NCBI GenBank assembly: GCA_032718475.1
Contig: JAUCBJ010007345.1
Location: 30,294 to 94,293, forward strand
Length of the DNA stretch: 64,000 nt
Direction: 5' to 3'
Source: Nemertoderma westbladi
Lineage: Eukaryota; Animalia; Xenacoelomorpha
Shown: piece after piece, positions 18,722-44,062 of the stretch
Numbering within the stretch: the first letter of the stretch is position 1
Layout: each line of letters begins with the position of its first letter
Position numbers and translations under genes: made by a program
The notes under the pieces: generated by a model
What the model was told of the DNA's origin: nothing
What the model saw: the letters and a program-made list of their open reading frames with translations, nothing else
The model's database searches: none

Positions 18722-18765
18722 TCTACCAGTATTGTAATTGTGACTGTTTTTTTTAGTTTTTTTTT

Positions 18766-19324: not shown

Positions 19325-19339
19325 TGTTAAGTTACTTGA

Positions 19340-20446: not shown

Positions 20447-20520
20447 ATAGTCGCTATTACTTCAGATAATCAGATAATAATAAATAATAAATAATTTACA
20501 TCGATTAAATTGTGACTATC

Positions 20521-21315: not shown

Positions 21316-21393
21316 TATTTATAATATTATTTTTAATTTGATTATTATACTTAAATCCATCACCCTTACTATTTTAAAATTTCTTCCACCACC

Positions 21394-21834
21394 TCACCCA
21401 TTTATCCCGCTATCCTCGCTATCTACATCCTCCACATTATTATGATTACCACCACCACCACCCAACATCTCCAACATTCCCATCAACATCTCAATCCTTT
21501 CTTCCATCGCCTTATCCCGCGCACACCTCTCAGCCTCCCTCGCTCTCCTATCCACCTCAGCCGCCATCTCCAACTCCCAATCTTCCCCCCATGCGCTCTT
21601 GTTTTTCTTCGCCCCTTCCTCCATATAATGCTTTTTTTCTATCACCTCCCACTCATTCCTAGGCTCTAAAAATCTCTCCACCCACGCTTCTTCTTTTTCT
21701 GTCAAATACATTGCTACCAGTATCATTTCGTTCTCATTATCATCTCCATCCTCCGCAATCTCATCATCCTTGATACTCTCATCATCCTCCACAATCTTAT
21801 CCTCCGCAGTCTCATCTTCTCTAACCACATCCAT
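21394..21834 (-). CDS. Acidic hypothetical protein (probable viral accessory gene)
   Basis: Intact ATG-stop ORF, E/D-rich, AT-rich flanks. Confidence 0.55.
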   Translation of the reverse strand: MDVVREDETAEDKIVEDDESIKDDEIAEDGDDNENEMILVAMYLTEKEEAWVERFLEPRNEWEVIEKKHYMEEGAKKNKSAWGEDWELEMAAEVDRRAREAERCARDKAMEERIEMLMGMLEMLGGGGGNHNNVEDVDSEDSGING

Positions 21835-21981
21835 GTATAATAAATAATATGCATAATAATATTAATAACTAACGCTTGTGGTTGTATGTACCACTATAAA
21901 CTATACATAAGATATAATTGCATAATTAACTGCATAGATAATAAACCTAGGTAAAAAGTCTTATATATATAGGACTAAAGT

Positions 21982-22859
21982 CTATTTCGGCACTTTATTG
22001 GGCTCGACCCCGGATAACCATGTCTTTATACGCCACGTAGCCGCTGCCAGCATTTCTTCATATTTAATTTCTATCTCGTCACTCTCGGGTAGTTTAACAA
22101 ATCGGTACAGGACATCGCCCTCAAAGTGTGCATTAGTCACCTTCGCATCTCTGATCTCTTGGGTTTCCTTTTCTTTTAACCCTATCCATACCGGGGGGGG
22201 GACTTTTGGAGACGCACTTTATTTGATTGCTTGGTTCAAAGCCAAACCACATTTATTGCAAGTGAAATTCCGTTACTTTTCCTAAAATTTATTATTCTTT
22301 ATCTTAAAACAAAAATTAATTTTCATATTATTATTTATGACCATGAAAATGACACGTAAACTGACCTGTCTCTGAAATTGTCATATTATTGCTGAACTAT
22401 TGTAGGAGGGAAATTTAAAATTCAATCAATTTAATATAAATTTAAAATCAATTTAAACATAATTATAGGATATAAATATTATATTTGAGCATTAGTGTGT
22501 GGCATATTTGAAAAGAGGAATAAATTTTGTATCTAAAACTTTTTACTTTAAAGTAATATCATCACACCACACAAAGTTATATGCTTCCAAACTTTACGTC
22601 CCCAAAAGTCCCCCCCCCCCCCCCCCCGGTAGTTTGAGCGTCTAAAGTACCCCGGTATGGATAGGGTTAAGTCAGCAATATGCGCTTTGCAAGTGCCGAA
22701 GGATGTTAATAGGGCTGACTTTTTCTCCAGTTTGTTGGAGTTTATTTGCGGATAGTGGCTTGAAGGGAGTACAATAAAATCCCGAGACACAGCCTGGGAT
22801 TTAGTCACCGACCCCTTCAATGGGGTGGCCCAACTACGAATGAAAGGAGGTATCGACAT
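21982..22859 (-). pseudogene. 128-aa hypothetical gene interrupted by piggyBac-like MITE
   Basis: Removing 22180-22670 restores one frame: MSIPPF...KAHIADL|KEKETQEI...NKVPK*. Confidence 0.7.
22180..22666. mobile_element. piggyBac-like MITE
   Basis: TTAA TSD (22176-22179, 22667-22670); 17-bp TIR CCCTATCCATACCGGGG; subterminal poly-G/poly-C inverted repeat. Confidence 0.9.
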
Positions 22860-23101
22860 TGTCACCTGTTGGTTGGTTATTCTACCCAACTCCACCTTAC
22901 TCTTGACAGGAAGTATAATAATAATAATAAATACTGGTAAATGCATGTATAATAAATAAATAAATAAATATATATAACATTTTAATGATATTTATTTCAA
23001 TCGATAATTCATTATACCCACAAATAATAATTTAACCGTTACCGTGACACCGACCAGAAACATGGTCTATTTATATAATAAAGTTTCTACCACTCAAAGA
23101 T

Positions 23102-23533
23102 TCACACTGAATGTTTATTCTTCTTTATTTGAAGTTGCCCATTAGTCTCGATTTCATTGAAAATGTCTTCACCATCATCCGTATCATTGACGATGTCCTC
23201 TTCAAAGTCGCAGATATCTTCATACGCATAGCTATGTGTTTTATTCACGATGAGATAAATTTTTCGCTTAAGCGCTTGTTCTTTCATGGCTTGAGGTGTT
23301 TTCATCTTCATCAGAGCGCTCACACCCCCAACAAGGGTATCAATATCCTTATAATCATTCTTTTTTACAGCGCTGTCTACCCGTTCATTTTCTGCAATCG
23401 CGGGCAACCAGATTTTTTTCTCATCCATTTCTTAGCAGTGACTTTTACTGCTTCGTACGTCTTCAGCTGACTAGCGTTGTTCGGCATTTCCACTTTCATT
23501 AGATCCTCGTCCGCTAATTCATCAAACGCAGCC
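23102..23533 (-). pseudogene. Hypothetical gene, 5' end cut by LTR element
   Basis: ORF 23102-23428 extends upstream via frameshift (AAFDELADEDLMKVE) to the TGT at 23534. Confidence 0.5.
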
Positions 23534-24195
23534 TGTTAGCGTATTCAATTCCGCTAGCCAGCCCCACAAAGTAGGCTTTAAGCAATATTGGGAGCACGAG
23601 GTTGATTACCAATCAACCTCGTGTCACCCCAATAAACGGGGACAACAGGCCCCAGGGGAACACACACACAGCTGGGGTCAGAGGTTACACCTCCGGGAGA
23701 GAGAGAATAACAGCAGTGGAGGGGAAACACTCCCAGAGAGATGGGAGGCGAGAAGTGAGTTATTAGCCAATGGGGGGAAAGCATCGACTGAGTAATGTAA
23801 TGCAGCCAACGGTGCAATATATATTATCATTTGTTGCGCCAATTCATTCACTTCAGTAAGTCAGTTAGTTAGGACAGTACCAGAACTCTAATCACCATCT
23901 CCACCTACTGTCAGCAATATTAAGCCATTTTAGCGGTACACTTCAGAAACATTCACTTTAACTGTGCTATATCTTATCTGATTATATCATACCCTTATGT
24001 TTATATACATCGATCAATCAACAACCAGAACTCTTTTCACATACACACACGGTGGGGACGCGTAGATTAGACACCGGATAAATCGGGATTCTCGGATCCC
24101 GTCACAGTGATTAGAGCCAACAACTGCCCTGAGTAATTAGATCCGAGCAGCTGCCCTAGTAATTAGAACCCAAACACTAGCTGACAGTCAAAGCA

Positions 24196-27100
24196 ATGAG
24201 TCGAGAAGGAGAAACGACACCGCCGCGGACCCCGGACGATGATAAAGACCTAAAGATCCGCGAGGCCGCAACGCGACGGTACCGACCCACAACGCCGGAC
24301 CCATCGGTAACGGGCGATCCGGCAATCCAAGATGAGGGGGGCCGTCTACAACTAGAAGACAAGTCGGGAGAGGAGAAAGACGAGTCGACACAGAGCAACG
24401 GTCGATGTGCCAAAGTCACCGGCCAGCCACAGGCAGAGGGCGACGGACGGCCCACCAGAACGGCGACGGTGGGGCCGCCGGTACGACGCCGGACACGGAT
24501 GGATAGAGGAGACGTCGGCGACAAAGACGTCGGGGTCAGCAACCGGCTCCGACGGGCCTACGCCGCAACCTGGAAACAGCTAAGAGAAGCCAAAGGAAGG
24601 GCCAGGATAGACGAGATGAAGTTAAAGAAGCGGCTAGGTGTGTCGAACAAACATTTTGATTACTTAGTGCGCTTTGGGCAGGGAGAGCTAGCCGACGAGA
24701 GAGCGAGAGGGGTTGCCAGCGAACTGTTTGAACTATGGGAATGTAGGGGTATGAAACCTAGCGTAGTGTACGTAGGGCCATACTTAGTCGATGCCCGGGG
24801 AGTAAAATTGGTGGGTTGGAGGAGACCACACGAGGGCGAATCTGAGGTTAACCCCGAGGATTCGGTCTCGTCGGTTGGAGAAAGTTCCGGGAGGCGGGGG
24901 AAAACTAGTAGGACGGGAAGGCGGAGGGAGTCCGTAGTAATCGATAAGTCCACTACATCCTCAACAAAAGGAAAACGGGTGCGAGAAATAGATCTGGCAT
25001 GCCAACTCGATCTGGCGGTGCTAGACCAGAGAGAATTAGAGAGACAATTAGAGGAAGAGAGTGCATTAATAGAGAAGGAGAAAGAACTGGTTAGAAAGAA
25101 TAGAGAGAGGGCCGAGAAGGCCGCAAGAAGCTTTAATATGTTTTGAATGTGAGGAAATAGGGAGGATGGAAAGAAAGGAGCGAGAAGAGCATGAGGATGC
25201 GAGAGAGGCAGGACGTAAGGAGCGTGAGATGGCGAGGGAAGTGAGACGGATGGAGAGAGTTGCGAGAGAGGCGGAATTAGCTGATCAGAGTGCGCGGGAG
25301 GATCTGGAGAGAGAGGCAACGGGGAAGCGTGTGCGGGATGATTTACATGCCCGCCTAAGGGGGCTTATTCAATATCAAGCCAAACAGAAGCGCCGACTGG
25401 AACTGGCGCAGATGGGGCTATCAGAGAGCGAGACTGGCTCGAGTATTTACGAGGAGCCAGGAGTTAGGGGAACATTTATTAATACTCCACTTACAGGGAC
25501 CGCACGACAGACCCAAGACTGGTGTGACCATGCGGGCGGGGGGGGGGGGGGGGGGGGCTAATAATAATACAGTAGATAACGTTAATATTAATAGTACCGT
25601 ATTGGATAATTCTAACCAAACTTTTATTGCAGGAAATATTTTACCTAGTAGTAGTAATTTAAATTTAAATATAAATAATTCAAATAATCCGAATAGTCCT
25701 AATTCAAATAATCTAAATCTGAATTTACAAAATAATTCAAATAATGTAATCACGGAAGATAAATCAAATAATTTAAATCTAAATCCGAATTTACAAAATA
25801 ATTCAAATAATCTTATTTCAAACAAACAAAATAATACCATCTCTGATTTGGGTGTGCAAAATAATTTAATTGAATTGGAAGATTTAATTGATTTAACAGA
25901 CGGTGTTAATAGTGGTGCTATTAATGTGAGCGTGGCGGACGCGCAGCGCATAGCCCGGCGAATGAGGGCCTGGTAGGCCGCGTAGTTAGTAGGCCGGAAG
26001 TGGCGGGGTTGAGCCAACCCGAAGGGGGCCTGGTAGGTCGTACAGTTGGTAGGCCGGAAGTTGTGGGGTTGAGCCAACCCGAAGGGGGCCTGGTAGGCCA
26101 CCTAGTTAGTAGGCAGGAAGTGGCGGGGTTGAGCCAACCCAAAAGGGGCCTCGTAGGCCATGTAGGTAGTAGGCAGGATGTGGCGGGGTTGAGTCAACCC
26201 GAGGGGGGCCTGGTAGGCCACGCAGTAGTAGAGAGAGAGGCGGGGGTGAATAGACCCAGCCGCAATAGAGATAGTGCGTCGACTCGAGAGGAGTGTAGAA
26301 GTGAAGTAAGAGGTAATGGAGTGATAGGTGGCGAGTGGGGGGGGGGGGGGGGGGCTACAGGAGCCACACAACAAGAAGTTAGCGGCAAGAGGGGGCCGAA
26401 TTAGGTAAACCGCAACACCCGGCGACGGGGAGTAATATGGGGATTGCGAGTATCCCCAGTGGTGCACGATCGAGCAGAGAGAGACAGGTTGACGTCGCGA
26501 GAGGGCGGACGAAGCGTCGAGCCCGATCAGAAGAGGGAAGAAGAACAGTGGAGTTTAACCGGGAGGTCGACGGGAGATCTCACGAGCGGGAATACTACAC
26601 TGGAGAGAGAAGAAGAGAAGAAAGTAGAAGAAGTGTCGTTGCGAACGACAGGAGAGCGAGGACGGATAGCGAGCCGTCGGTAGTCGAGGTGGAAATGGAG
26701 AGTCAGTGGGGTCGAACTTCGGGAGATTGCCGTCGTCCCGGAGAAACGCGACCTGACGAGGCGCACTACACGCCGATATAGGGGTACGCGATGTACCAAT
26801 ACAAGGACGAGAACAGTAGAGGGGGTCGAAGAGAAACTTCCTGGCGGGATCTACCTACCGATCGAGAATACGGTAGCCGCGAGGAGGACTATTCGAAAAG
26901 ATTAAGCTTCGATCCCGAGCGACACATACAGACTGCAGGACATACTGTAGGCCTTACTGTACATACTGTAGGCCTTACTGTACATACTATGGGCCATGCT
27001 GGGAGAGATAATGTAGGCGATAGGATAGCGCGGACGACGGGATTAAACCCGGAAGTCGTGGAGTACATACCGGCAGGTAGGCCAGAAGTTGATAGGCCTA

Positions 27101-28695
27101 TACCGGTACCAGCACAGCAGTATGACTACAGCATGCAAGGACATAACATATAGCCAGGGGAGGGGGGGATTATTGCGGATAGGTGCATGGGCCCCAATAT
27201 ATTAACATCAACCCCAGTACCAAACATACCGGTGGGGGGGGGGGGGGGGCAGGGTGACATTCCCCCATCACAATATCAACAATATACCCCAGTAGGAGCA
27301 AGAACAACAGACCCCTTGGACGAGAATAGATCATGCGACAACGAAATATGGAGGGGGCCGCTACCCCCACTGATATATCCGACGCAAAGGAAGACAGCAA
27401 ATAGGATGAACGGACCGCACCCAACAGGAGAAATTATACAGCATCCATCGAATCCATTGGAGGCACAAGCAATGGGAATGGCTACATTAATCGATGCCTT
27501 AAAAACCAGGATCGAGCTACCACCCGTGGAACCATTCAAATTCGATGGAAGTAGGCCGGAAGAATACCTACAGTTTTGGCGAATGTATAGTAATGAAATA
27601 TTAACAAAGAATTTGACGCAGGCGGAGTGCCTAAAGTATCTACAAGTGTATACAGGAGGCCCAGCATACGACATCGTGAGGCAATACCAGGGCATCGAGG
27701 GCAGCTTTACGACAGCATGGCGGGCGCTAGACAGGGAATACAGGCACCCGGCCAAGATCATCCGGCAAACCCTGAGAGGCATAACATCGGGTGGCCTACA
27801 GGATAACCCCGTTAGCATAAAGACATTCGCTAACAATGTCGAAAAGGCGCTAATCGTGCTAAAGACACTGGACGCGCCATACGAACTCAACGCGTCTAAC
27901 AACATCACTACGATAGTGCAGGCACTACCGATTTGGCTGCGCAATAAGTGGAGAAAAATTGCTTTCACCACTCGAGATAAGAAGGGCGCGGAACCGGGTT
28001 TAGAAGAGATGTCGAGCTTCTTAAACTATGAAGCTGAACTAATAACAGATCCAGTCTATAGTGAGGATAGCCTGGGAAAGGGACCAAGGACCGATTACCA
28101 CAGGCCGAAACCAGAGAACAACGCGTCGAATGCATTGCCAAAGCTCAGAGAGTTACTGCCGTACGCAGCGACGCAGGGGACTTCTAGTCCACAAGTAGCC
28201 GGGGGTAAGACCACATCATGGAGTGGACAGGGGAAAAATAACAACACAAATAAACATAACTCCAGCACGCCCAGTAGGCCGAACCCAAACAATAAGAATA
28301 GTAGGGACTTTGGTACAAATATAAGTGCGATATGCAACGCACTTTATAAGGATGGCTACAACCCAAAGAGCAAATGCCAATTACATACAAATGCACTTCA
28401 TCAGACCATGAACTGCAGGTACTGGCAGGCGCTACCCAGAGAAGATCAGGTAGAATACGTGAGGAGAAATAAAATCTGTTCGCGATGTGTGATGAGTGGA
28501 CATAGGGCTAACCAATGCAAGGAAACGCCAATCAAGTTCGGTCAAAATAAAGGTCAGACAATGGCAACAAGCACCGTGGGAGCAAAGAAGAGAGGAACGG
28601 TACTACTTGGGGTAGTACCAGTGCGAGTGATCGGAGAAGGCAATCGATCAGTGACCACACTGATGCTGGTCGACAGTGGTGCAGCCTTCACCTAA
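24196..28695 (+). pseudogene. gag: BEL/Pao gag with very long N-terminal extension, plus start of protease
   Basis: FKFDG..Y..FW (DUF1759-like), CQLH..H..C and CSRC...GH....C knuckles, LVDSGA; stops and poly-G frameshifts. Confidence 0.85.
25968..26222 (+). repeat. About four copies of a 60-bp coding repeat (GLVG..V.R.EVAGLSQPEG)
   Basis: ggggttgagccaacccgaagggggcctggtagg recurs every 60 bp. Confidence 0.9.
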
Positions 28696-31600
28696 GTTGA
28701 GGATTGGGTGGCCGAAGAGATAGGATTGAGAACGAGGCCAAGTAGAATGGCGGTAACAACCATCTCTAGCAAAGATGAGGTACTGGAGATGAGGACCGGA
28801 CGGTGCGCGATAGCAGCGGTGGCACCGGGATGCGACTATGGGGCGACCATCGACCCCATCCAGGTGATAGAGTCGATAAATATCAATGCCAGGCGGCCAA
28901 CCAACATCGAGGTCAAACAATATAGATTCCTGGACAGTATCGACTTCTCAATCCCAGAGGTGGACGTTAGGAAGGTATCCATCATAGTAGGAATGGACTG
29001 CCCAACGGCCCACGAGAGAATGCAAACGGTCTTTGGCGAAGACAGGCAGTGTGACCCGGTGGCGATATTAACACCATTCGGGTAGACGCTGATTGGCCCA
29101 ATTAAGAGTAAAATACCATTTAGGATGTTGGAGACATCAGGCTGCATGTTCGCGGAAACTATGCGAGAGATGGAGGATGAGGGCTGAGGAGCAGCTCAGG
29201 AGACTGCTCAGGCAGGATTTTGAGGGATTAAAAGAGACCGGGGTTGGAACCTCGGTAGAAGACAAGCAGGCTCTACAGAGCGTAAAGGAGTCGATGACAT
29301 GCGACGAGGGGCGGTATACCATAGGGATGGTATGGTAGCTACCGAAGCTACCGCTACCCGACAATAGAGGGATGGTACTCACGAGGCTTCGTAAGTTGAA
29401 GCAGACACTAAAACGGAGCACCGAGAAGAATGAGTACATCCACGTATATACGTATCCACGCATACAAGGATGGGCCGTAGAACTACCGGTCGACGAACCA
29501 AACACGGACAGGACCTATTACCTGCCACTCCACGTGGCTCTAGACCCGAAGAAAGGTAAACTGCTGATGGTAGTTGATGCATCAGCTAAAACCAACGGCA
29601 AATGCCTAAACGATTATCTGCTGGAGGGTCCCAACATCTACAACTCAGGGATCGAGGTCCTACTTAGATTCAGGAATGGGAAACACGCCTTCACCTGTGA
29701 GATAGAAGGCATGTTCAACCAAGTCCGTGTGACGGAAGAGGATAGCGACAGCCAACACTTCTTATGGTACAACGGCGATGAGGAACCGTCGACAATACCG
29801 ATGTACAAGATGATAGTACAGAATATGGGAGTCAAGTCGTCTTTGTTCACGACGACTATGGCTGTAAGAGACATAGTAAAGGGAAGGGAAGATAAATACA
29901 GCGCTAGGGCCGTCGATATGATTCAACGCGGCTTCTATGTAGACGACGGTATGGAGTCTGGAAACACGGTTAAGGAATTACTGGATACAGGGCGCGAGGT
30001 TTGCGACATCCTTAAGGGATCCGGCTTTAACCTAACCAAATTCCAATCCAGATCAGAGGAATTTATCAAGGCCATAAAGGATGAGAGACCAGAATTGACC
30101 ATGGATAATCCCACGACAGCTAAGGGACAGGACATGGCGACCAAGCAAATAGAGTCCCAACAGAAGGCACTGGGGATCGTGTGGAACAGAGAGACAGATG
30201 AGCTGAAGTACCAATTAAGCCAGGAGGGCGCAGACATCCACACGAAAAGGGGCTATGTGTCGTACATAGCAAGGATATACGATCCCCTAGGCCTAGCATC
30301 CCCATTATTAGTCACGGGGAAACAGATACTCAAGAGAGTATACAAACTAAAGGATGAGTGGGATGCAGGGATACCAGAGGAGATCAGCAAGCAGTGGTGT
30401 AAATGGACAGAGAGTTTAGAGCAGATGGGAACATACAGCATGCCACGAGTGTATTTCCCAGGGGAACATGACGAATCTGGATCTACATATGTTCTCCAAT
30501 GCGTCGTTAGAGGCATACGGAGTAGCACTCTACTTAGTACAACGAGAGGGGGTTGACAAGCCCAGACTTGCCTTCAGCAAGGCGAAGTCGATGCTACCAG
30601 ATTCAGCATCGGTCCCAAAACTCGAATTGACAGCTGCGAGGCTAGGAGTTAGGGCCACAGCCTACTTAATGGACGCTATTCCCAACATAGTGGAGACACA
30701 CTACTGGACGGTTTCCATGGTAGTGCTTGGTTGGCTACATAACGAAAGGACAAGATACCCTATATTCATCGCAAATAGGGTGGACGAAATAAGGGCGACC
30801 ACAGAACTGGAAAGGTGGCACTACTGCCCAACGGACGAGAACCCAGCGGACTTGTTATTGAGGGGCATGGCACGCCACACTTTCTTGAAGAAGGAAGTAT
30901 TGTGGCAACACGGGCCACAGTTTCTGAACAATAAGGAGGCCTGGCCGCCGATGAGAAAGGTGGACCCGGGCTCAGGAGAAGTAGCGTTAGAGGAAGAAGA
31001 GGGAGATTCAGAGGGGGAAGATATATATAGCCAAATGGTGAGGGAGATAAGGGACGTGCAACCAAAACCGGGAGAATTGTGCGACAACCCGACGGATAAA
31101 CTCCTTAGTTACAGCTCTAGTTGGTACAAGACCAAGAAATTAGTGGCGTACTGTAGAGCCTTCGGGGATTTCCTCAAGGGAGTCAGCAAGGACGTAAAAT
31201 TTAGAACAACCATCGATCTGGAGGGAGCGGCCAAAGCAGTCATCCACTACGAGTAGAGAAAGAACTACAGCAACGAGATGGAACGCGTCGGTAAACAACT
31301 GCATCTCCGATGGGACAGCGAGCTGATAGTGCTGCACCACAACTTAATGATGACGGGATTCTAGTAATGAACTCTAGGGTATTGAACAACAACAGTATTG
31401 TAATATCGCCAAAGCCCATCATCATACCTACTGGATCGCCGATAGTCCACCAGATTATATGGGACTCCCACAAGTTGATATTGCACGGGGACACCAACCG
31501 AACCCTCACGGAGATACGGAGGACCTTTTGGGTCAAACAGTTGAGGAAGAAGGTAAAGGCGGTAGTGGGGCAGTGCCAGACCTGCCGACGAGAGAAGGAG

Positions 31601-32060
31601 CGAGCCATACAGGAGATGGCACCACTACCGGCGAGTAGGGTAAGACAACATGACCCGCCATTTACGCATTGCGGTATGGATATGTTCGGGCCAATAAAGA
31701 TTAAGGTGATGCGACACACGGAGAAACGCTACGGTATTATATTCGTGTGTAACAACACGCGGGCTGTAGGGATAGAACTCGCCCAAGATGCAACCGCATC
31801 AGCATTCATTAATGCTCTAGAAAGGTTTAGAGACCACAATGGTGGGACGATCGCAGTAATATATTCTGACAGCGGGACCAACTTTGTGGGGGTGCAGAAC
31901 GAGATGGCAGAGGCCTTGGATATCCTGGAAGGGGAGGAAGTCAGGGCAGCCATGAGAAGGCGTCAGGTAAAGTGGGAAAGGAGGACGCCGTATGCTCCGC
32001 ATACCCTAGGATGCGTCGAGAGACTCGTGGGTAGTTCGAAGCGTCTGATGACGAATGACG
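28696..32060 (+). pseudogene. pol: BEL/Pao pol (RT, RNase H, integrase core), degenerate
   Basis: CLND.LL.GP, LLRFR, FYVDD, YDPLG, FS(N)AS..AYG, KLEL, NPAD..RG, H..H/CQTC, DMFGP, SDSGTNF, ERLV. Confidence 0.92.
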
Positions 32061-32323
32061 TAGGCCAGAATGTGGATTATGAAATAGAGTAATCCATTGG
32101 CAATAGTAAGTAGTAGCACAGTAGTAGGATTGAATTAAATTAAAATATTAAAAATAGAATAGGAAATTATAGAAAATTACAAATTATGGTAACAGTAGGA
32201 AAATTATTCTGGAACATAATTAAAGTAACGGACAAAATTGCAATCTAGGGTACAATTTGGTAGCTTCAGAATTTAAGTAGTAAAATTTAGGCTATAACTC
32301 AGAATTAAGTAAGGGATAGGCCA

Positions 32324-33550
32324 TTGTCGAACTGTACAGACCATCCTAATCTTATCACTCATCTGTACTGCGACTTGGCAAGGCACCACCTTACAGGTGA
32401 GCGAGTGAGAGAGTTCGAAATGGCGGGGAAACTGATCAGGAAGAGAAAGGCGGAGTCAGGAGGAAAGGAGATACTGGTGGATTTCACCAAGAGGCATCCG
32501 GAAGAGAAAACAAGGGGATACTACGAGCGGTTGGAGAGAGGTCACGGGGTGCGAGCGCTACAAGACCATTTCAGGGAAGTGCACAAACAGCGGCTGGTCG
32601 GGACCTACGGGACGCCGTCGCTGGACAATGCAATCTTCGAGCATTTCCACTATGTGGTGAAAGGAGACGAAGCGAAGTTCGGGATTCCGAAGTACATGAG
32701 AGAGCCACCGAGGAAAGATTGGAAGAGATCCGTCAGCAGGGGAGGATACATGATCCTAGACGATGAAGGAACCGTGGAAGACGAGGAGGGTTCGAGTAGA
32801 GGATCGGCGGGGTCGGCCAGAACCATACTCCTACATTTGGCCGCGCCAAATGGGGATATTTTCCTATTCGATCTGGGAATGTATGGGAAGAAAGACGGGC
32901 CAAAGTTGAACCGGTTGCCGAAGGTGGTGCAAATCCTATTGAGAGAGAAGTTGACGACGAAAGTGGGATCGGCGATTCGCGACGATGCGGAGAGAATCAT
33001 CGGTCCGGACACCCCCAATCTTCTGGACATGCAGACGGTCTTCATGGCTATGACAGCACCAGACGGGTTAGGACTATTGGAGAGCGCAGGCCATTGTGGA
33101 GCGGTGGCAATCGGCCAGCTTTTGGGGCTCGTGTGTCACAAACCAATGGACTGTGCAAAGTTCAGAGAAGAGTACGGAGCAGAGTTAGCAAACTCGCTGA
33201 AGTGGGGAGCAAGGCCAGGGAAACAAGAGGTGTATCAATTCCGGAGAGGAGCAATAAAGGTATATCAGAAGCGATATATCCTGCAGGAGGACTGGATAAT
33301 GATGGGTTTGCTAAACCTATTCATGACCATTGTCATTGGGAAGGAACCAACGGCATTCCTGCTATCGGGATCACCCCTGAGCTACATAAGAGCCTTTAAG
33401 ACGGCTTTCGAGGGTCTGGTAAACCACCCGGGGCTGAAGGGCGAGTCGGTGTACTATAACTGCCGACATCTGGTAGACAGGAACGTAGATACGCCATATC
33501 AGAGATGGGAGCAGCTAGAGGTGGATAGACGAGAAGCGAAGCGATTGTAA
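32324..33550 (+). CDS. Extra ORF: DEDDy (RNase D/WRN/EXD-like) 3'-5' exonuclease-like protein
   Basis: ILDDEG (ExoI), LLHLA..IFLFDL, LP..V..LL...KVG..I.DD (ExoII), LLDMQ, Y..RYILQED (ExoIII); first ATG at 32420. Confidence 0.7.
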   Translation: MSNCTDHPNLITHLYCDLARHHLTGERVREFEMAGKLIRKRKAESGGKEILVDFTKRHPEEKTRGYYERLERGHGVRALQDHFREVHKQRLVGTYGTPSLDNAIFEHFHYVVKGDEAKFGIPKYMREPPRKDWKRSVSRGGYMILDDEGTVEDEEGSSRGSAGSARTILLHLAAPNGDIFLFDLGMYGKKDGPKLNRLPKVVQILLREKLTTKVGSAIRDDAERIIGPDTPNLLDMQTVFMAMTAPDGLGLLESAGHCGAVAIGQLLGLVCHKPMDCAKFREEYGAELANSLKWGARPGKQEVYQFRRGAIKVYQKRYILQEDWIMMGLLNLFMTIVIGKEPTAFLLSGSPLSYIRAFKTAFEGLVNHPGLKGESVYYNCRHLVDRNVDTPYQRWEQLEVDRREAKRL

Positions 33551-33612
33551 GAAATCGCTAGACAGGAGAGGAGAGAGGCAGAAGAAAGGGAGGGGGAAGC
33601 TAGGGCACAGAC

Positions 33613-34038
33613 GGTGGTCACTATTTGAGGGCATTTCCATCTAATAAATTACCTAAATTAGATAATAATAATAATAATAATCGGAGAGATTATGGGTTAA
33701 TAGTAAATACTGATAAAGTGCATCTACCTGGTGTTCATTGGGTGGCTATATATATACGAGATAATGAAGCTGAATTATTTAATTCGTTTGGTTCAAAATA
33801 TCCAAACAGATGTATCAAAAAATGGCTTGAGAAAAATTCTACAAGGTGGTGTACTACTCGCAGGCAATTTCAAGACCCTAGAAGGACCACATGCGGGTTA
33901 TACTGTCTTTATTACTTGGTAAATCGAATTCACACAAACTATCCAATGAGAGCATTTACAAATAATATGGAAATAAATGAAATAATATTATATAAATGGC
34001 TTGTTAGTTATTATAAAATAAACCAACAAGCATTGTAA
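33613..34038 (+). pseudogene. Adenain-like protease, 5'-truncated
   Basis: PGVHWVA, FNSFG, QFQD..TTCGLYC. Confidence 0.9.
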
Positions 34039-34082
34039 TTAATCATTTAACTTTTGTTTATCTAAATATATTATCCATTAAA

Positions 34083-34651
34083 ATGGATAAAATGGATAAT
34101 ATCATTTTTGTCGATTTTAAATATTATAAGATAGACAATATGGAATATCTGATAGTATTTAAAGAATTTGCTATATTCGATTCTAATTACACTAAAACTA
34201 ATGTAAAGACGTTTTTAATTAAAGTACCCCCTGATATTAACTTATCGGCATTAGATAAAGCCCATATAAAAAATTTACAAGACATGACATTGCATTTACC
34301 CTGGAATTACGGCAACATTTCGCAAGATGACTTCAAAAAGTACAGAGACATCAATAATATAAAAAAAATATATATGTATTCTGGTTGATGAAGCTGGCAA
34401 TATTAATTACCGAACTTGATGTTCTCGCTCCAAAATTGATGGAGAAATTGGAGATATATCAACTATATTACAATTATTTAACCCTGTGTCCTTTTCACGT
34501 TAAATTTTCTACTGTAGAAAATAAATGCGCTTACCACTTAAACAGAAAGGACAACTGTCTGAGGTACTGCTCTGCAAAATGGGTCGGAGGGTATGAAATG
34601 AAACGATTTTTCGAGAGAAAGCAATTAACTGGGACTAATGATAATGACTAG
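34083..34651 (+). pseudogene. Polinton DEDD-like protein, frameshifted
   Basis: IIFVDF..FKEFA..VPP..LHLPWNYG; CPFH..CAYH..CL.YCS. Confidence 0.6.
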
Positions 34652-35574
34652 TGAGAAAGAAATAACTCTGGTGGAAGATGTACAGTAGGTTTACTCTAAG
34701 CATGTAATGTGATGGGATAATATAATTGTTTTAATGTCAACAAAAATAATAAAAACATTAAAATATAATTTTTTATATCTCAGTCTGACGCACGGGGGTA
34801 GGGTTTAGGTTTACACCCTCAAACACACACACCTACCGGTAGCTAGCCGACTAGCTAGCTAGCTGTTGCATCTGAGTTTAACTACCGGTAGCTGATTTTA
34901 CACACTGACATATAACAGGGCTAAACTGCAGAATGGCTCCCCTTCTAGACTGACAAAGTACCGTTGGCTTGCTTTAGCGTTACTAATAATAAAATTAAAT
35001 TAACTCGACATGTGGTTTGCGAATGCGGCATTAGAGTGGCCCACCTAACAATAGACCTACCGGTACTGTAGCGCCCTTGTAACAGTATACTGGTATAGTC
35101 GGATAGGGCATGCTGGTTCCTTCAATTTAAGGATTATTACACTTGAATGCTTTCAATTTTCTGTTTACAACTTTAATTGTCCTAATCTAGATTATTACTG
35201 AGGCTACACTACTACTGTCACATAGGTAAGCCTATACAGCTATAGTTAACTTTATGTGGGCCTTTCTCAAATGTAGGCTCAATATGGTTGACGGTTAACC
35301 TTTAGAACTCACGGTCCGGTGGGCCTACATTCAGCTAGTCATATAATGACTCCTCAACTGAAAGCCGACTAGCTCATTGATACAATAGGTGTGGCTAGCA
35401 GTATATAAAATCCTCTGCACTCAACATTCACTCCATGTTGTAGGCCTATATAAAATATAGTTAGTTTATTTATGTATTTGCTTTTTTTAAATTAGATATA
35501 AAATAGACAAAAACCTACTGCTACAGGTAACACATTAACACAAACAGACAGACTGATAACATTTAATGGATTAC

Positions 35575-37162
35575 ATACGAGTCTACGGGTGTATTCTTGG
35601 ATCTGTCGGTAGGCCAACAGGAGCTACTGATACTTCTGGTTCTGTCGCTTCTTCTTCCCATTGCTCTTCCCCAATAAAATTATCAAGTCTTATTTAGTGA
35701 GCTTCTTCAGCCTCTATACAAACGTTTGAACTGAAGTTTTTATTTGTTGTAAATGTTGTTTGCCTGCCTTCGCCTGTTTTATTTCTTAACATTATAGTAA
35801 ACTGACCATTTTCATTTTTTAAATGTAACTCCATTATATTTAAAGATGTAAAAAACAACTCTTCTGCTTCGAGATCAAACTTCAACATACAATCGCTAAC
35901 CCTATTTTCAATAAACACAAATGTGTGGCGTCACATAGAAAGGGTTCAATCCTCAGAAAAGTGATTTTGCAGAAAACGAGTTTAAAAATTTTCTTTTTCG
36001 AAAATTCCTTTTTTCAGAAAAATACACTTAAAAGATGTCGAAATTAAAATTTTTTTTTTAAAAATGTTCTACTTTTTGAGATGAATTCAAAAAACGACAC
36101 ATCAAAACAGCACGTGTTAATCAGGACGAGCTATATTAAATCAAAATTGAAGTTTCATTTATAAAATAATTTTAAGTATAAAACTACCATGCAATATTAT
36201 GTGACATGTAACAGCGTCACTACTTCTTTTCTACTTCTACTTCTCTCAAGCACCACCAAGAGGATCCCTTGTAAATGATTTTAATCAATTCAAATACCCT
36301 CCAATGCCGCATGGGGTATATCTTCTCCTGCCTAGTAAAATAACTGTACTTGATACAATCTTTGTATGATATAGAAATCCCTTACAGGCTCCTTTCTAAA
36401 CAATACAGCCCATCAATCTCAGGTACTTACAGCCTTCCTTATTCTTATGTAATCAACCAATCAAAGGGCCTAAAATTCATAGGATTACTCTGTGTTCACA
36501 TCGACAAAACATTATTGCTTCTCTACCTGCCGCCCTGCGGTATGTTATTGATTACCAACATTGAATTGATTTGAACATGGAATTATATTGTATCCTGGTT
36601 TTATTGTTTATTTTACTTTGATTTGAAAAATATGAAACATCCTGGTAGTGAGAAGAAACAAGCCATGTAATAGTTGCATCTGTTCAAAAATGTCACCATT
36701 GGATTCAGTGGCTTCGAAAAACCACATACACAAAAAATCGCTATCAAACTAGCCGTTTTAGAAAATTTAAAAATTAAGTCTTTGATGAAAAGTGCTAGTA
36801 GTGAAAAAAACAAGTCAGGCATTGGTTGCATCAGTTCAAAAATATTACCATCGGATTCAGCGGCTTCGAAAACCCACACACACAAAAAACCGCTATCAAA
36901 CTAGCCATTTTAAAAAATTATAAAATTTAAACACATTTTTGGTTTTCTCAGACGAAAAGTACTAGTTGTATTTATTTTGCCAATATTTCGAAAACGACAA
37001 AAGATGGCAAGTTGCGGTTTTCAGTTTCAGATTCTCCGTTAAATTTCGTACCAGAATCGGTAAAAAAGTGAAAATATATTTTTTTGGTATTGAACCCTTT
37101 CTATGTGACGCCACACAAATGTCACATAGTTAACAAAATGTCCAACATAAACTTTTCCCATG
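35575..37162 (-). pseudogene. Small accessory gene interrupted by Sola1-like element
   Basis: Excising 35923-37120 gives MGKVYVGHFVNYVTF|VFIENRVSDC... Confidence 0.65.
35923..37116. mobile_element. Non-autonomous DNA transposon, Sola1-like
   Basis: 28-bp TIR GTGTGGCGTCACATAGAAAGGGTTCAAT; 4-bp AAAT TSD (AWWT); internal duplication at about 36645-36925. Confidence 0.8.
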
Positions 37163-37677
37163 CGGATTAGCGATATATGCTCTGTTCATTATTCTATTCT
37201 ATTCTATTCTATTCTGAATGTAGTGAAATGCATAGCCGATGTTTTAATAATATGTATACGGGCTAGTAACAGATAGGTGGGCTTCGACTTTGACTATGAA
37301 TACCAGTACATAGCCATAAACTTTTCTCACCAGGCTTAGCGATGTGTAATTTAGCCAGCAATAGTGATGCTCTCTGCACACAGTCATAAGTAACAGATGC
37401 GCAACCGTAGCTCACTCGCGAGCTGCGATGCTTAGCTAGCTACTGTATCTGGGTATACTATGCATACTAGGCTGTTACAAGCAGTCGCTCTGCTGAAGTT
37501 AGTTAGTTTCCCCAACTAGTTGTTGATTTAAATAAAATATTCATAAATTTCTTCTCCCTCAAATTAATATATATATTTTATAGTAAAAAACTTCCATCAC
37601 CAAACAACAATAAATTTCACTCTCTCTAATTATATTTTATATCTAAAAACCCACCACCACCACCACCAAACAACAAT

Positions 37678-38200
37678 AAATTATTAAACAGTTTGTTGAA
37701 TATAGGATAATATATATGAAATTTAAACAGAGAACACATTTAATGTACATTTACCGGTATAGAAACAGCAAACAACAACAATATTTTTTATACTATTTAT
37801 ACTTTACAGTTATTAACATATTTCTGGTTCGTATGAAATTTCTAGTTTGACATTATCAAATATAACATAAAACCCGATATTGTTTATAAGTAAACCTATA
37901 GATTATGGTGTCAATACTAAAAATATAAGTACACAAATTAATAGATTTAAAAATCAAATTAATGATTGTTTTTTAAAATATATGCTTTTTAACTTTATTA
38001 AAATTATATTTTCTACCAAGAATTGTTATTCGTCCATTTGTAAACATTAATAAGGTTGCACCAAATACCTTATATATAAACTGATTAGGTTTGAGTATAA
38101 TTTTACCTGACAATTGATTTTTTAATTCTTTTAAATTAAGTCCTTAAATGATCTGCTTACAACTTATATTTTTATTCACTATTTGATAATTCATCATCAT
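37678..38200 (-). pseudogene. TATA-box-binding protein (TBP)-like gene, decayed
   Basis: Manual translation: YQIVNKNIS..LNLKEL..P.QFIYK..ATLLMFTNGRITILG (repeat 1); ISYEPEI..IVVVCCFYTGKCTL..YPIF (repeat 2); not in ORF track because of stops. Confidence 0.7.
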
Positions 38201-41200
38201 CTTTCGGTTCTTCATAAATTGGTATATTTGATTTTTTTATAGGTTTTTTGAGGTTTGTTTTATAGTGTCCCCAAGGAAGTGATTTTTATTAAGCCAATAA
38301 AGTTTATCATCAAAGCTACTGAGTGCAAATTTATTTTGCCTTAAGGTTTAAATACGATGTAATTTAGATTTAAATCTGTGTATGTTTTTTTATTTCTTCA
38401 TTTGAGTTATATGCTTCTTAATAATATTCTTCATGAGTATTATTCGTTTCCACAATAGGTCTTGTAAAAGCTTTTGCTCTGCGAATATTTCTGTTATTCC
38501 ATTCCAAAATTGAATATAATTTTGGTCTTAAAAATACTCCTTGTTTAATTTCACGTGAGGCTAGTTCATCTTTACAGTAATAAAGTCTTGATTTATTTTT
38601 ATTACTATAACGCGGGTGATCCGGAGGGTAAATGGATGTATCTAAAATATTATTTTTAATTAATGCTTTTAAAAAATTACTCTGCGATGTATTATAATAA
38701 CAACCTATTAAAGATTCTGTATCTGATGCAACAATTTCAATACGGCAGTTTAATTCTTTCTCAATAGGCAGTAATCTATTGTAATACAGTTCATACATAT
38801 CAAGTTTAGCCAAATCCAACACCGCGCTACCAATAAATATAGGCTTATCTAGAGTTACTGTGTCTTTCACAAATAAATGACCCGATAATGTTTTATTGTA
38901 TATTTTAAATTGTTCATGATTAATACGTTTCACCAATTGGTCACATTTATCATTGCTATTTGCGATACAAAAGTTACATTGGTCCCGTATCTTTTCTATA
39001 GTCTTACCAATTAAAGATTTATTAAGCAGCTTTGCGACAGCCATTTCAATGTAACTTTTTGCTAGTCGTCTTTGATTAATATTAAAATCGATTTAATTTT
39101 TAAATACAAATTCTTGTTGAAAAGAATATAATTTATGTAGTTTAGTAACAATTAATCCTTGTTTTATATAAAATTTTAACAGTTTCAAATGTAAATGATA
39201 AAATTCTTTATCAAATTGTGTCAGCAAGAGTTTTGGAGTAGACATCTTATATTTACCGGAGGTGCCTCTTTGTATCGATAAGTTATTAAATTGTTCCCTC
39301 ATATAAGGTGAAAGCATTGATTCATTTATACTTAAATGCTCAGAGGCTAACGGTAATTGTAATGTTTGATCGTGAATAGCTTTGGGGTATTTTAATTCAA
39401 ATATTAAAAAATATCCAGTAGATCTGTCATTGTCTAAATCTTCCAAGTACTCGATTAGTTTTTCTGGAATTACATTCTCTAAATGTTTAATACTTACTTC
39501 TTTGAATTGTGAGGTGGATAGTTTTTTACTTACATTCCCAGAATATAATGAGTTGAAATCAATATTAAAAATATGGCATTCTTCCTCAGTAGAATCATAT
39601 GTAATTGTTTTGGGTATATTTGATTCTATACAATGCTTACAACAAAATGAAACACCACCCCTAATTGATTTTTGAAAATCTCTGTATGTCTGATAATCCT
39701 TTATTAATTCTATTTTACATTTATTGTATTTTAGAGCGCAATCATAGGTAAATGATGTGATACTAGAGTAAAAAACCACTTCTAAATCGTAATTTTGTTT
39801 CCTAAAACAAAACATTCCTAAAATTCTCAAATATATCAACAAGCAAGCAAACATCGAGTTTTAAATAGGCTAAAAGATAAAAAAAAAGATCTTTGAGATT
39901 CACGCAGTCTAATTCTACCTTCTACCAGCAAACCTATAATCTTCAATTGTACATGTTTTTTGGCAAACCTGTATCATTAAATTTATTTATATCTGTCAAG
40001 TACTCGTATGGAAATACTCCTTTTCGATTAACTGTTATTCAGGTTTGGATAAAAATATTTCATTTCTTGTAGAGTAATAGGTAAAATTGAGCTTATATCA
40101 TGACTCGCTACATCCTTTGTTGAACACTAAACTAAATTACTTAGGGAAAAGCTTAACAATTGATATGTGCCTAAGATACGTAACTCAATTTTTTTAGAAG
40201 TGTTTTTAATTGGGATAAAAGCACTCAGTAAAATATATCGTTCTGTATTTCTCAGTATAACCTTTATATCCCTATGTGTGTATTTCTTATCTCTAAATCC
40301 GGTTTGTAATATACAATGTATATTGTAGTGATTGCCATTGTACCCGCAAAGTACATACAGGTATCGTTTCAATGATAAACTCCGGTTACACCTATTATAG
40401 GCTGCCGCAATATATTTACCTGTAATATATGAATGATGTCTATTTTTCCCTACATTATTATTTAAAGTAACATTACAATAAAAACCAATTTTTGCCTGTT
40501 CAAAATTTACAAAATTAATATTAGTAAATAATATAGTTTTATGGGTATATAATTCTGACCAGCAACATAACTAGGTTAAATCAGTATATAATGAATCTAA
40601 GAAATCTTGAATACAATTATAATTATTATTATTTGACTTTACGAATGTTTTCAAATGACATTTTGGAGGATCAATTAATTCACTATTTGGAACAATTAAA
40701 TAAGTGGCAGCACACGGTATATGCTCCTGTATAAATTGATTATTAACTGAGGGTTGTAAGATATATTCTATATCAAAGTAGGTGACAAACAATGGGGATA
40801 AGGTTCTAACTAAATTTGTAAAACTAATGTGTGTTCTTTTTTTATTAGGCAGTTTCTCTCGTTGACTTCTTCCTTGGTAACAGGCGAGACGGTGTAGTTG
40901 GAGAACTTCCTTTCGATAAAAATGCCCCAAACACCTTTCACAATATTGTCTATTGTGGATATGAAGAGCTTTCGTATTCAGCAATCGATTCAAGTTAGTT
41001 ATGCAAACATAATGATTCAGTTTAGGTACATTGTTATTTTTTACTACAAGTAATATATTTAATAACTCTTTATCTGGTGTTATTTTACTAAATGGAGGTT
41101 GTCTTAATATAGATACGGGGGTCTGTTTGTTTTTGTTATTCCAGCATAATAAATTAATTATATATTTCGAATTTTGTTTTTCAAAAAGTTAAATCGCTAG

Positions 41201-42193
41201 CTGCCACTCTTTTGGATAATCATTTTTCCCGTTGTCAAAATTGAAATATCTCATATAATTTTTGTACTGGGAAGTATGGTATTTGTGCGTTTTCACTTTG
41301 CTACTAAATTTTGCGGTTATAATAGCCCATTTGAAACAGTCATTATCAGCCATTTGTATATTTATTGTATAATTTTTACTCGATAGAGCCTTAAGTAATT
41401 CCATCTATCCATGTCCCTTATATAGTAACGACCTATACTTAAATTCAGCTAATTTAATTTCAACTCTTAATAAAGATTTAATACGCCAGCTCAAACCACA
41501 TATATTAAACATGGCTATATTTTGTAATATATTTTCAAGTACATACTCAAACCATAGATCAAAACTTTGTGATACAGTATTAATAGCACCACCGGAAGAA
41601 TTAAAATAAAAGGTTTCTAATTGCTCACCTTCTGAAAAATGTGTTATGTACATTAATACATTTAGACCTAACCACAGTCTAAGAACATTAATTTCTTTCA
41701 ATCTGTCTAATATTAACTGAAGAATATTACCTCGAATTTGCGCTAATGCTGTTTCTACATCGGGATAATCTCTAGAAGTTGGGAGGTCATGGACATAAAT
41801 TTCAAGACGATTATCGTGAGCTTCTTGTTCCCGCGTAAAAATTGTTGCACATGTACCAAGAGCCACCCTTAAGTTTTTTCTAGATATTAAATTTTTATGT
41901 TGCGGAGATTTACGCTTTCTTGTTTAATAACATTTCAAGTGACAGTCGTGTCATAAATAATTCTCATATGTATACTCTTTATTACAGGTAGAACAAGTCA
42001 ATTGATAGGTGCAAAACTCCATTTCTTTACAGCCCGTAGTTGATTCATGTCGTTTACAAATTTAACCTCATAAAGTTGTGACATGACACTTAAAACAAGA
42101 ATAACCTTCAAAATGCGACTTTAGGTGACGTAAATAATTATGTCTAGTTACATTCATATGACAGAATGAACAACATTTTACTATTTTATCCAT
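38172..42193 (-). pseudogene. Protein-primed family B DNA polymerase (pPolB) with N-terminal Zn fingers
   Basis: DNDCFKWA..HYVCI, YFDIE, SIRGG, DFNSLY, KLLNKSLIGK, SDTES, LRPKLYS, FDDK, LPWGHY; many disablements. Confidence 0.93.
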
Positions 42194-43328: not shown

Positions 43329-43583
43329 GATGACCCCCCCTCCCTGTCATGAAACGGACTTTTCCTGAGATTGTAGATACAGTACTTTTAGGGCTACTGA
43401 TTGGTGCTGGGAGTTGTTTGGTGTACCGGTATGTGTAATTCTGTGTTTTTGTTAACCTATGACTCTTTATTATTTGTACCTACAGCCTGACCGTTCGACA
43501 TGTTTCTTGTTGTCAGATTGCAGATTAAAGGTTTTTTAGTTGTTTAGTAGCTGATGCCCTTTTCTCGCGATAGATTCGTGACA

Positions 43584-43600
43584 TGGTGCGGTGACCCGGG
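43584..43600 (+). promoter_or_regulatory. Primer-binding site, tRNA-His-like
   Basis: TGGTGCGGTGACCCGGG directly after 5' LTR, close to the His PBS TGGTGCCGTGAC. Confidence 0.7.
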
Positions 43601-44062
43601 AACAAAGAAAATATTAATGCGAACCAGGGAAATTTAAAGCTTATCACATAGCCAGATACTGAGATAGCTGCATAGTCCTAACTGCCTGAATACTGATGTA
43701 ATGCCCACTGGGAGCCAGGGGTACTGGTTAAAGTTATACAGTTATAATGGTGTCGCTGTTGGTTGGTGTGGTACCGGTACAAATCTTACCCTACTGCTGT
43801 ACTGTTACATAGGCCTATGCATGGCAGCATGGCTTATTTTGCAATTTATTGATGGTGACTCGGATCATATGATCTGCTGGACTACTGGAGTTTCAAAGGG
43901 AGAAACAACTTTGGATCTATCAGATAATCAGAGGTGAGATTACTGATAGAAATTATTTCTGTCACCAATTGTTACTTCAATATACATTGCACATAGGCCC
44001 ACTGCTTCGGAATACTGAATACCGGTATTTATATACAGATATAGGCCTACATATATCACAGT

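What the first reader, a model, noticed from the sequence alone, without database searches (positions are those of the whole stretch)
32324..33612. BEL/Pao retrotransposon with a DEDDy 3'-5' exonuclease-like ORF in the env position
Seen: after the integrase and an AT-rich spacer, an open ORF of about 400 aa with the element's composition carries DxE (ILDDEG), KVG..I.DD and YxxxE/D motifs spaced as in RNase D/WRN/EXD/Mut-7 nucleases. Established: DEDDy extra ORFs are known in bdelloid rotifer Ty3/gypsy-like and Penelope-like elements; I do not know a BEL/Pao example. Inference: an element-encoded nuclease for RT proofreading, RNA trimming or piRNA counter-defence. TTACAG|G at about 32397, just before the ATG at 32420, could be a splice acceptor for a subgenomic mRNA.
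Basis: partly seen in the sequence, partly recalled or inferred. Interest (0 to 1): 0.85.

Follow-up and report, generated by a model that had tools for sequence, protein, structure and literature searches.

The report
BEL retrotransposon carrying WRN-like exonuclease
A many-copy jumping gene of the BEL/Pao type carries, where some relatives have an envelope gene, a third gene that selection appears to keep and that is predicted to encode a 3'-5' trimming nuclease, likely used against the host's small-RNA defence; I found such cargo described in print only for other retroelement groups, in rotifers.

Summary
An open frame (ATG 32420, 376 aa) follows a BEL/Pao pol. Pfam, PDB and homolog searches miss it. 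ESM Atlas puts it with PF01612/WRN-like exonucleases (30 of 30 named hits), and it scores above 100 of 100 shuffles against a WRN-like profile. The predicted catalytic set is D114, E116, D189, Y286, E290 (DEDE-y). Thousands of contigs from four runs cover it, its depth tracks pol, and 15 of 27 listed differences between copies are silent (28% expected).

This copy is decayed. The integrase end is deleted at 32055-32060, the stop at 33548 is private, and a Polinton fragment cuts the frame at 33612. No 3' LTR is present, so 'between pol and 3' LTR' is inferred. No contig bridges the deletion, so a chimera is not excluded. AlphaFold gave no usable model, and there is no RNA evidence.

DEDDy ORF3s are published for rotifer Gypsy-like and Penelope-like elements. 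This scan noted Rrp6-like and dead DEDDh ones in Gypsy-type or unclassified elements elsewhere. I found no BEL/Pao case. Verdict: new variant of a known kind; function untested.

The parts
23534..24050 (+). Likely 5' LTR (about 517 nt). It starts TGT at a clean junction with a minus-strand Polinton-like reading frame and holds a hairpin (23595-23623), CCAAT (23767) and TATATA (23818). The 3' end and the primer site after it are tentative.
   Evidence: no second copy in the window
24181..28695 (+). Long, decayed gag region: charged low-complexity N-terminal part, 60-bp repeats at 25906-26265, DUF1759 capsid domain in ORF 27154-28695
   Evidence: PF03564 E 1.1e-11
28696..31294 (+). Protease, RT (YVDD at 29936) and RNase H of BEL/Pao type, broken by stops and frame changes (near 28693, 29083, 29100-29185, 29336, 30460, 31254)
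   Evidence: (PF05380 E 2.7e-18 and 1.6e-12)
31295..32055 (+). Integrase zinc finger and catalytic core, with a frame change near 31334. It ends at an internal deletion that removes about 165 residues found in homologs.
   Evidence: PF17921 E 3.8e-11; loose ends on both sides of 32055-32060
32060..32419 (+). AT-rich spacer that varies among copies. It ends in the most pyrimidine-rich 40-nt tract of the element (32340-32379), a CTAAT branch-like site and a candidate acceptor TTACAG|G (AG ends 32396).
32420..33550 (+). ORF3, 376 aa: basic N-terminus (KLIRKRK), predicted DEDDy/WRN-like exonuclease domain at about residues 105-300 (D114, E116, D189, Y286, E290), helical C-terminal part, no clear transmembrane segment (top Kyte-Doolittle 19-mer 1.43)
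33551..33612 (+). Charged in-frame continuation of ORF3 after the stop that is private to this copy; cut off by the junction
33613..34038 (+). Not part of the element: N-terminally truncated Polinton/Maverick adenain protease that replaces the element's 3' end; other copies at 6671 and about 55812
   Evidence: (PF00770 E 4.5e-05)

Best explanation
This is a decayed copy of a many-copy BEL/Pao retrotransposon whose third gene, in the slot where some relatives carry env, is predicted to encode a WRN/EXD/Mut-7-type DEDDy 3'-5' exonuclease, likely made from a spliced subgenomic mRNA as a separate protein that would act in trans to trim or destroy the 3' ends of host silencing RNAs or their precursors and so protect the element's transcripts. 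Shown: BEL pol, the open frame, many copies, excess of silent differences. Predicted: the fold and the two-metal site D114/E116/D189/E290 with Y286. Inferred: that ORF3 lies inside the LTR-bounded unit, splicing, activity, and an RNA substrate. My odds: element-borne DEDDy ORF3 about 0.8; catalytically active about 0.75 given that; small-RNA counter-defence about 0.6 of the remainder.
For: Domain: ESM Atlas whole protein, 24 of 30 hits PF01612, best 0.93 with 172 shared features; residues 90-315, 30 of 30 named hits PF01612, best 'Werner syndrome-like exonuclease' 0.94 with 186 shared (both calls are one source). hhalign to a profile of 78 bacterial WRN-like exonucleases scores 35.5, E 1e-4, over residues 132-207, above 100 of 100 shuffles (max 21.9) and best of 64 window ORFs (next 24.2). 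The forced full-length alignment lays YILQEDW on the profile's YAATDAW motif. Family: 2052, 3486, 2139 and 23 contigs laid on 31900-33640 in X1-X4 (3 samples). ORF3/pol depth is 0.47-0.82 in all 4 runs, while a Polinton bin/pol ranges 0.24-9.8 (weak). One X4 contig runs from about 32060 into 32726. Selection: 15 of 27 listed differences inside the ORF are silent vs 28.5% expected (P 0.003); 12 of 15 that vary among copies (P 5e-5, cut-off chosen after seeing the shares); 4 of 27 in each other frame. Acceptor: tract in the top 0.04% of element windows. Function by analogy: Nibbler trims miRNA and piRNA 3' ends (PMC5622571, passages); arenavirus ExoN serves immune evasion, not proofreading (PMC7968707, passages). 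ORF3 is separate from pol, so it need not be packaged with RT.
Against: No Pfam, PDB or protein-database hit; HMMER with my WRN-like profile gives only E 0.05; hhalign probability is only 55-67%. The N-terminal ExoI alignment has low confidence. The ExoIII acid is E, not D. No 3' LTR, and no contig bridges the integrase core to the far side of the deletion. No evidence here bears on substrate. Rodriguez 2017 argues that a silencing role would be self-limiting and leaves the function open. Only 40 of 283 differences were listed, chosen by the tool.
Confidence: 0.4

Rival explanations
1. Replication helper: the same nuclease is packaged with or recruited to the particle and trims 3' ends of the element's RNA, primer or cDNA, or proofreads for RT.
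For: WRN-like and PolA-type DEDDy enzymes act on DNA (PMC5408684 passage), and those authors suggest 3'-end processing. The family is long for a BEL (at least 11 kb vs 4.2-10 kb in ICTV), which echoes ExoN-linked genome growth in nidoviruses. The basic N-terminus could be a nuclear signal.
Against: It is a separate ORF behind a variable spacer, not fused to pol. Most BEL elements replicate without it: element 2 in this window has identical LTRs and no ORF3, and none of 77 other BEL loci gave a match (low sensitivity).
Confidence: 0.22
2. Pseudo-nuclease: the domain keeps the fold but has little activity and works as an RNA-binding adaptor or decoy, like Exd1, Egalitarian or Maelstrom.
For: E replaces D at the ExoIII position, and there is strong divergence and extra inserts. 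Rodriguez 2017 notes inactive DEDD derivatives in piRNA biogenesis. Earlier scan notes report dead DEDDh ORF3s (unchecked leads).
Against: All four acidic positions and the tyrosine are present. None of the 40 listed differences falls in those codons (243 not shown). Rotifer ORFs carry a D-to-E change (DEED) and are called possibly active.
Confidence: 0.16
3. Chimera: the break at 32055-32060 joins a BEL integrase to the end of another high-copy element, and ORF3 belongs to that other element (possibly inside its LTR: GGCCAGAA|TGT at 32063-32073 looks like a PPT-LTR start).
For: No contig seen bridges the break in other copies, and both sides have loose ends. The locus is heavily rearranged. 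There is no 3' LTR.
Against: What is missing is exactly the pol C-terminus, as a plain deletion would give. The sequence before 32060 is uniform among copies (agreement 0.93-0.95). Depth and composition match pol. The 5' LTR start differs from 32071.
Confidence: 0.13
4. ORF3 is a real accessory gene but not of DnaQ fold; the motifs are chance.
For: No curated-library hit and no structural match; weak HMMER score.
Against: Two different methods agree on the same family, and the motifs are in the right order and spacing.
Confidence: 0.07

Closest known systems
DEDDy (RNase D-like) ORF3 of bdelloid rotifer LTR retrotransposons Juno1/2 and Vesta2/5, and of Athena/Terminon elements (Rodriguez, Kenefick, Arkhipova 2017, PMC5408684; passages and section 3.6 read)
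   Same: Separate enzymatic ORF3 after pol in the env slot; DEDDy type; one D-to-E change in the tetrad; no transmembrane segment; function untested.
   Different: The host here is BEL/Pao, not Ty3/gypsy-like or Penelope-like. The tetrad reads DEDE, not DEED. Here silent differences among copies are in excess; that paper found ORF3 variation mostly neutral, measured on env- and GDSL-type ORFs. Sequence kinship with the rotifer ORFs could not be tested, as I had no sequences.
Belpaoviridae / BEL-Pao with a third gene (ICTV profile PMC8742986, whole text read; de la Chaux and Wagner 2011, PMC3118150, passages read)
   Same: gag (DUF1759), PR-RT-RH-IN order, Pao-type PF05380, LTR starting TG, optional third gene.
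   Different: The only third gene these texts name is env-like, and 'exonuclease' occurs 0 times in the main text of PMC3118150. This family would be at least 11 kb.
Cellular WRN-exo / EXD / Mut-7 / Nibbler group of PF01612
   Same: KVG-x4-D ExoII motif, lipophilic strands before it, Q-x2-Y-x3-acid-x-W ExoIII motif.
   Different: Below Pfam detection; carries inserts; E at the ExoIII acid; mobile-element borne, with an unknown C-terminal extension.

Membership tests
BEL/Pao (Belpaoviridae) | Pao-type RT/RNase H (PF05380) and DUF1759 gag, with BEL polyproteins as nearest relatives | tested here: met
   46 of 46 listed homologs carry PF05380 or PF03564, best 36% identity
BEL/Pao (Belpaoviridae) | Domain order gag-PR-RT-RH-IN | tested here: met
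   tblastn of P0002 and P0003 maps collinearly on 27445-32065
BEL/Pao (Belpaoviridae) | Two LTRs of 0.2-1.2 kb, a PPT and a target-site duplication | tested here: inconclusive
   one likely LTR 23534-24050; the 3' end is replaced by Polinton DNA at 33613
BEL/Pao (Belpaoviridae) | Primer site complementary to tRNA-Arg or tRNA-Gly | not tested
   candidate after 24049; no host tRNA set at hand
DEDDy 3'-5' exonucleases (PF01612, WRN/EXD-like) | Detectable family similarity | tested here: met
   met by ESM Atlas and hhalign with shuffle and window controls; not by Pfam hmmscan, and only E 0.05 by HMMER
DEDDy 3'-5' exonucleases (PF01612, WRN/EXD-like) | ExoI D-x-E, ExoII D, ExoIII Y-x3-D in order | tested here: inconclusive
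   D114/E116, D189 and Y286 are present; the Y+4 residue is E290, with D291 next; ExoI placement is by eye and by a low-confidence alignment
DEDDy 3'-5' exonucleases (PF01612, WRN/EXD-like) | DnaQ/RNase H-like fold | tested here: inconclusive
   single-sequence models at pLDDT 33.8 and 31.9; fold searches uninformative
DEDDy 3'-5' exonucleases (PF01612, WRN/EXD-like) | Metal-dependent 3'-5' exonuclease activity | not testable with these tools
   needs an assay
Retroelement-borne DEDDy ORF3 (rotifer Juno/Vesta/Athena pool) | ORF lies between pol and the 3' LTR in other copies | tested here: inconclusive
   multi-copy, depth tracks pol, spacer-ORF3 bridged by contigs; integrase-to-spacer and ORF3-to-LTR not bridged
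Retroelement-borne DEDDy ORF3 (rotifer Juno/Vesta/Athena pool) | Groups with the rotifer ORFs in a tree | not testable with these tools
   no relative of ORF3 came back from any search
env-like ORF3 | Signal peptide and transmembrane anchor | tested here: inconclusive
   basic N-terminus and top hydrophobic 19-mer only 1.43 in the 376 aa seen; the true C-terminus is missing

The most novel reading that the evidence does not exclude
The first BEL/Pao lineage to have captured an enzyme as its third gene: an active, selected, WRN/Nibbler-like exonuclease with a DEDE-y site that works as a retrotransposon-encoded suppressor of piRNA/siRNA silencing and explains the family's very high copy number. 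A second, unrelated LTR family in the same window (ORF 62051-63907) may carry a distant nuclease-plus-knuckle version, pointing to a pool of such genes in this genome.
Probability: 0.3. Interest if true: 0.8.

Novelty: new variant of a known kind. Interest (0 to 1): 0.52.

Why it matters
It would extend enzymatic ORF3 capture to a second LTR family (Belpaoviridae) and beyond rotifers, which suggests repeated independent recruitment of DEDD nucleases by retroelements. It adds a sign of purifying selection, which the rotifer study did not find for the ORF3 types it measured. Retrotransposon-encoded suppressors of animal piRNA silencing are scarce (my own knowledge). A soluble domain of about 200 residues with a named catalytic set makes the open question, counter-defence or replication aid, directly testable in vitro.

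Tried and rejected
No whole genome is held. Pfam, PDB-sequence, 5.8-billion and 1.84-billion protein searches and a metagenome scan found no relative of ORF3. The single hit P0001 (E 2.7e-4) is a bacterial-type repeat protein matched on 34 residues and was rejected. tblastn of both ORFs on plasmids gave only E 2-9 noise. The integrase found nothing in viral contigs. Both AlphaFold2 single-sequence models were unusable, and no DnaQ chain was listed by VIA-align; this is no evidence either way. No RNA holder was listed. Idea that ORF 62051-63907 is a homolog of ORF3: suggested by eye, not supported by blastp (E 2.5-8), hhalign vs shuffles (15 of 100, 95 of 100, 7 of 60 and 48 of 60 shuffles as good), global alignment (717 of 1000) or a homolog search. 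Survey of other BELs: 77 metagenome loci, 64 with the pol end, 25 with 1 kb or more after it. No match to ORF3 or to the WRN-like HMM among 2456 ORFs; 17 post-pol ORFs went to Pfam and 7 to hhalign, none DEDDy. The test is weak, because the HMM barely sees ORF3 itself. ORF3 inside the LTR was considered and made unlikely by the clean TGT start at 23534, which differs from 32071. Literature searches without a BEL/Pao exonuclease case. Repbase, subscription journals and supplements were not seen.

Full report
Setting. The window is AT-rich DNA, likely animal, packed with Polinton/Maverick pieces (ATPase-like ORF at 640, adenain at 33613, polymerase-like ORFs at 38418-41923, the last named from recall), LINE fragments, a 44-bp satellite and two BEL/Pao elements. 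No whole genome is held, so copy-level evidence comes from contigs of four public runs (three samples) found with 31600-33600.

The element. A purine-rich block runs from about 23534 to 33612. It starts with TGT at 23534, exactly where a minus-strand reading frame of the flank is interrupted, and has CCAAT and TATA boxes before a tentative end near 24050. I read this as the 5' LTR. Then come a long gag with DUF1759, a protease, RT with YVDD at 29936, RNase H (PF05380) and an integrase with an H2C2 finger. The nearest proteins are BEL polyproteins at up to 36% identity (46 hits). The copy is decayed, with several stops and frame changes. Homologs go on for about 165 residues after the point where this integrase ends, and contigs of other copies have loose ends on both sides of 32055-32060.

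The ORF. After an AT-rich spacer that varies among copies, the frame opens at 32309 and has its ATG at 32420. It gives 376 aa to a stop at 33548-33550, and 0 of 2000 shuffles give such a frame. In X1-X3 all the depth laid at 33548 reads another letter, so the stop is private and the real protein is longer. The frame stays open through a charged stretch to 33612. There, sequence matching the Polinton adenain copy at 6671 begins abruptly. Depth falls from 2,661-5,979 to 31-56 in the last bin (an edge bin), so bulk copies do not run on into Polinton DNA. No 3' LTR is in the window. With the deletion and the missing end counted, the family is at least 11 kb long, above the 4.2-10 kb given by ICTV.

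Is it a DEDDy nuclease? Standard searches fail: Pfam, PDB sequences, 5.8 billion proteins, 1.84 billion representatives (one spurious hit) and metagenome contigs. ESM Atlas gives PF01612 for 24 of 30 hits with the whole protein (0.93, 172 shared features; the top three, 0.93-0.95, are unnamed eukaryotic clusters of about 213 aa) and for 30 of 30 named hits with residues 90-315, the best named 'Werner syndrome-like exonuclease' (0.94; PF01612 on 38% of members) (one source). As an independent test I fetched 120 bacterial loci with a recalled ExoIII motif and built a profile from the 78 with a long enough frame. HMMER ranks ORF3 first of 247 window ORFs, but only at E 0.05. hhalign gives score 35.5, E 1e-4 over residues 132-207, above 100 of 100 shuffles (max 21.9) and the reversed sequence (11.7), and best of 64 window ORFs (next 24.2). 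E. coli RNase D and PolA score 83.6 and 46.6 as positive controls. A forced alignment lays QKRYILQEDW on the profile's ExoIII motif. The predicted site is D114, E116, D189, Y286 and E290, so the fourth acid is E. Both single-sequence AlphaFold2 models had pLDDT 32-34 and their fold searches say nothing. I put the DnaQ fold at about 0.9; it is predicted, not shown.

Is it part of the element and kept by selection? 2052, 3486, 2139 and 23 contigs lay on 31900-33640. ORF3/pol depth is 0.47, 0.61, 0.82 and 0.71 in X1-X4, while a Polinton bin/pol is 9.8, 0.9, 1.5 and 0.24. The tool warns that such depth is no copy number and that the runs were chosen with this stretch, so this is a weak hint. Contigs bridge the spacer and ORF3 (one X4 record from about 32060 to 32726; X1 records 32060-32229, 32108-32331, 32241-32455). 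None shown bridges the deleted integrase end or reaches a 3' LTR. One X2 contig skips 32229-33523, perhaps a derivative without ORF3. Of 283 differences the tool listed 40. I dropped 12 before the ATG and the stop site. Of the other 27, 15 are silent against 28.5% expected from the mutation spectrum (P 0.003), and 4 of 27 would be silent in either other frame. Splitting after the fact at a share of 0.975, 12 of 15 differences that vary among copies are silent (P 5e-5), and 3 of 12 that are near-fixed against this copy are silent, as private decay would give. Composition and third-position usage match pol.

Expression. The 40 nt at 32340-32379 are 65% pyrimidine, in the top 0.04% of windows of this purine-rich element, and TTACAG|G follows 23 nt before the ATG.

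Controls. A second BEL at 43345-50031 has identical 239-nt LTRs, a 5-bp target duplication and no third gene; its RT is only 29% identical. Among 77 BEL loci from metagenomes, 25 had 1 kb or more after pol, and none matched ORF3 or the profile (low sensitivity). The cargo thus looks lineage-specific.

Mechanism. The best reading is a free protein made from a subgenomic mRNA that trims or destroys 3' ends of silencing RNAs. The closest cellular group includes Nibbler and Mut-7, which work in small-RNA pathways (PMC5622571 and PMC5408684, passages). An RNA virus precedent for a defensive rather than proofreading ExoN exists (PMC7968707, passages). An ORF separate from pol is poorly placed to proofread, and most BELs replicate without it. 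Every one of these steps is inference. The rivals are end-processing in replication, a binding-only pseudo-nuclease, a chimera at the 32055-32060 break, and a non-DnaQ protein.

What is known. Rodriguez et al. 2017 (passages and section 3.6) describe DEDDy ORF3s with a DEED tetrad in Juno and Vesta and in Athena/Terminons, function untested. Arkhipova's reviews repeat this (PMC6431247 and PMC5718144, passages), as does PMC6338049 (passage). PMC7998251 (passages) had nothing relevant. The ICTV profile (whole text) and de la Chaux and Wagner (passages) name only env-like third genes for BEL/Pao. Nine searches showed no BEL/Pao case; Repbase, paywalled papers and supplements were not seen and may hold one. 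Earlier notes of this scan report Rrp6-like ORF3s in Gypsy-type elements and dead DEDDh ones in LTR or unclassified elements of other genomes, none for this sequence or for BEL. They are unchecked leads.

Verdict. A real, likely selected, predicted DEDDy third gene in a BEL/Pao family: a new variant of a known kind, interest 0.52. It would rise to about 0.8 if it proved to be an anti-silencing nuclease.

Noticed in passing
window 62051-63907 (-), followed by TGT at about 61973: A 618-aa open frame with no homolog and several Cys/His knuckle-like motifs ends shortly before a purine tract and TGT, as an ORF3 of another LTR element would. Its N-terminal part looks by eye like the second half of a DEDDy domain with a frame change near 63830, but five tests did not support this. 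The window edge cuts it, and the next window could settle it.
   Followed up: partly
window 43345-50031 (+): A young, nearly intact second BEL element: identical 239-nt LTRs, CTCCC target duplication, primer site TGGTGCGGTGACCC, one stop near 48389, inserted in a LINE-like RT fragment; no third gene.
   Followed up: partly
window 32063-32073: GGCCAGAA|TGT right after the deletion resembles the pol-end/PPT/LTR-start junction of ordinary BELs (element 2 has GGGGAG|TGT) but does not match the element's own LTR start; perhaps a relic of where ORF3 was gained, or chance.
   Followed up: partly
window 23595-23623: A 13-bp hairpin with a 3-nt loop inside the likely 5' LTR.
   Followed up: no
window 25906-26265 and 25560-25900: The gag leader holds five 60-bp repeats and an Asn-rich AT island; contigs show copy-number variation there.
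   Followed up: no
window 640-9710, 15500-23530, 33613-42000, 55753-56106: Several rearranged Polinton/Maverick copies (ATPase-like ORF, adenain in three places, capsid-like and polymerase-like ORFs named from recall); their depth relative to the BEL differs 40-fold among runs.
   Followed up: partly
window 13244-15648 (+): Two purine-rich ORFs (224 and 570 aa) with coiled-coil repeats and no credible Pfam match, like the start of another gag.
   Followed up: no
window 58304-60400: A 44-bp tandem satellite of more than 40 copies.
   Followed up: no
window 32229-33523: One X2 contig (depth 291) joins across ORF3, a possible derivative without the third gene.
   Followed up: no
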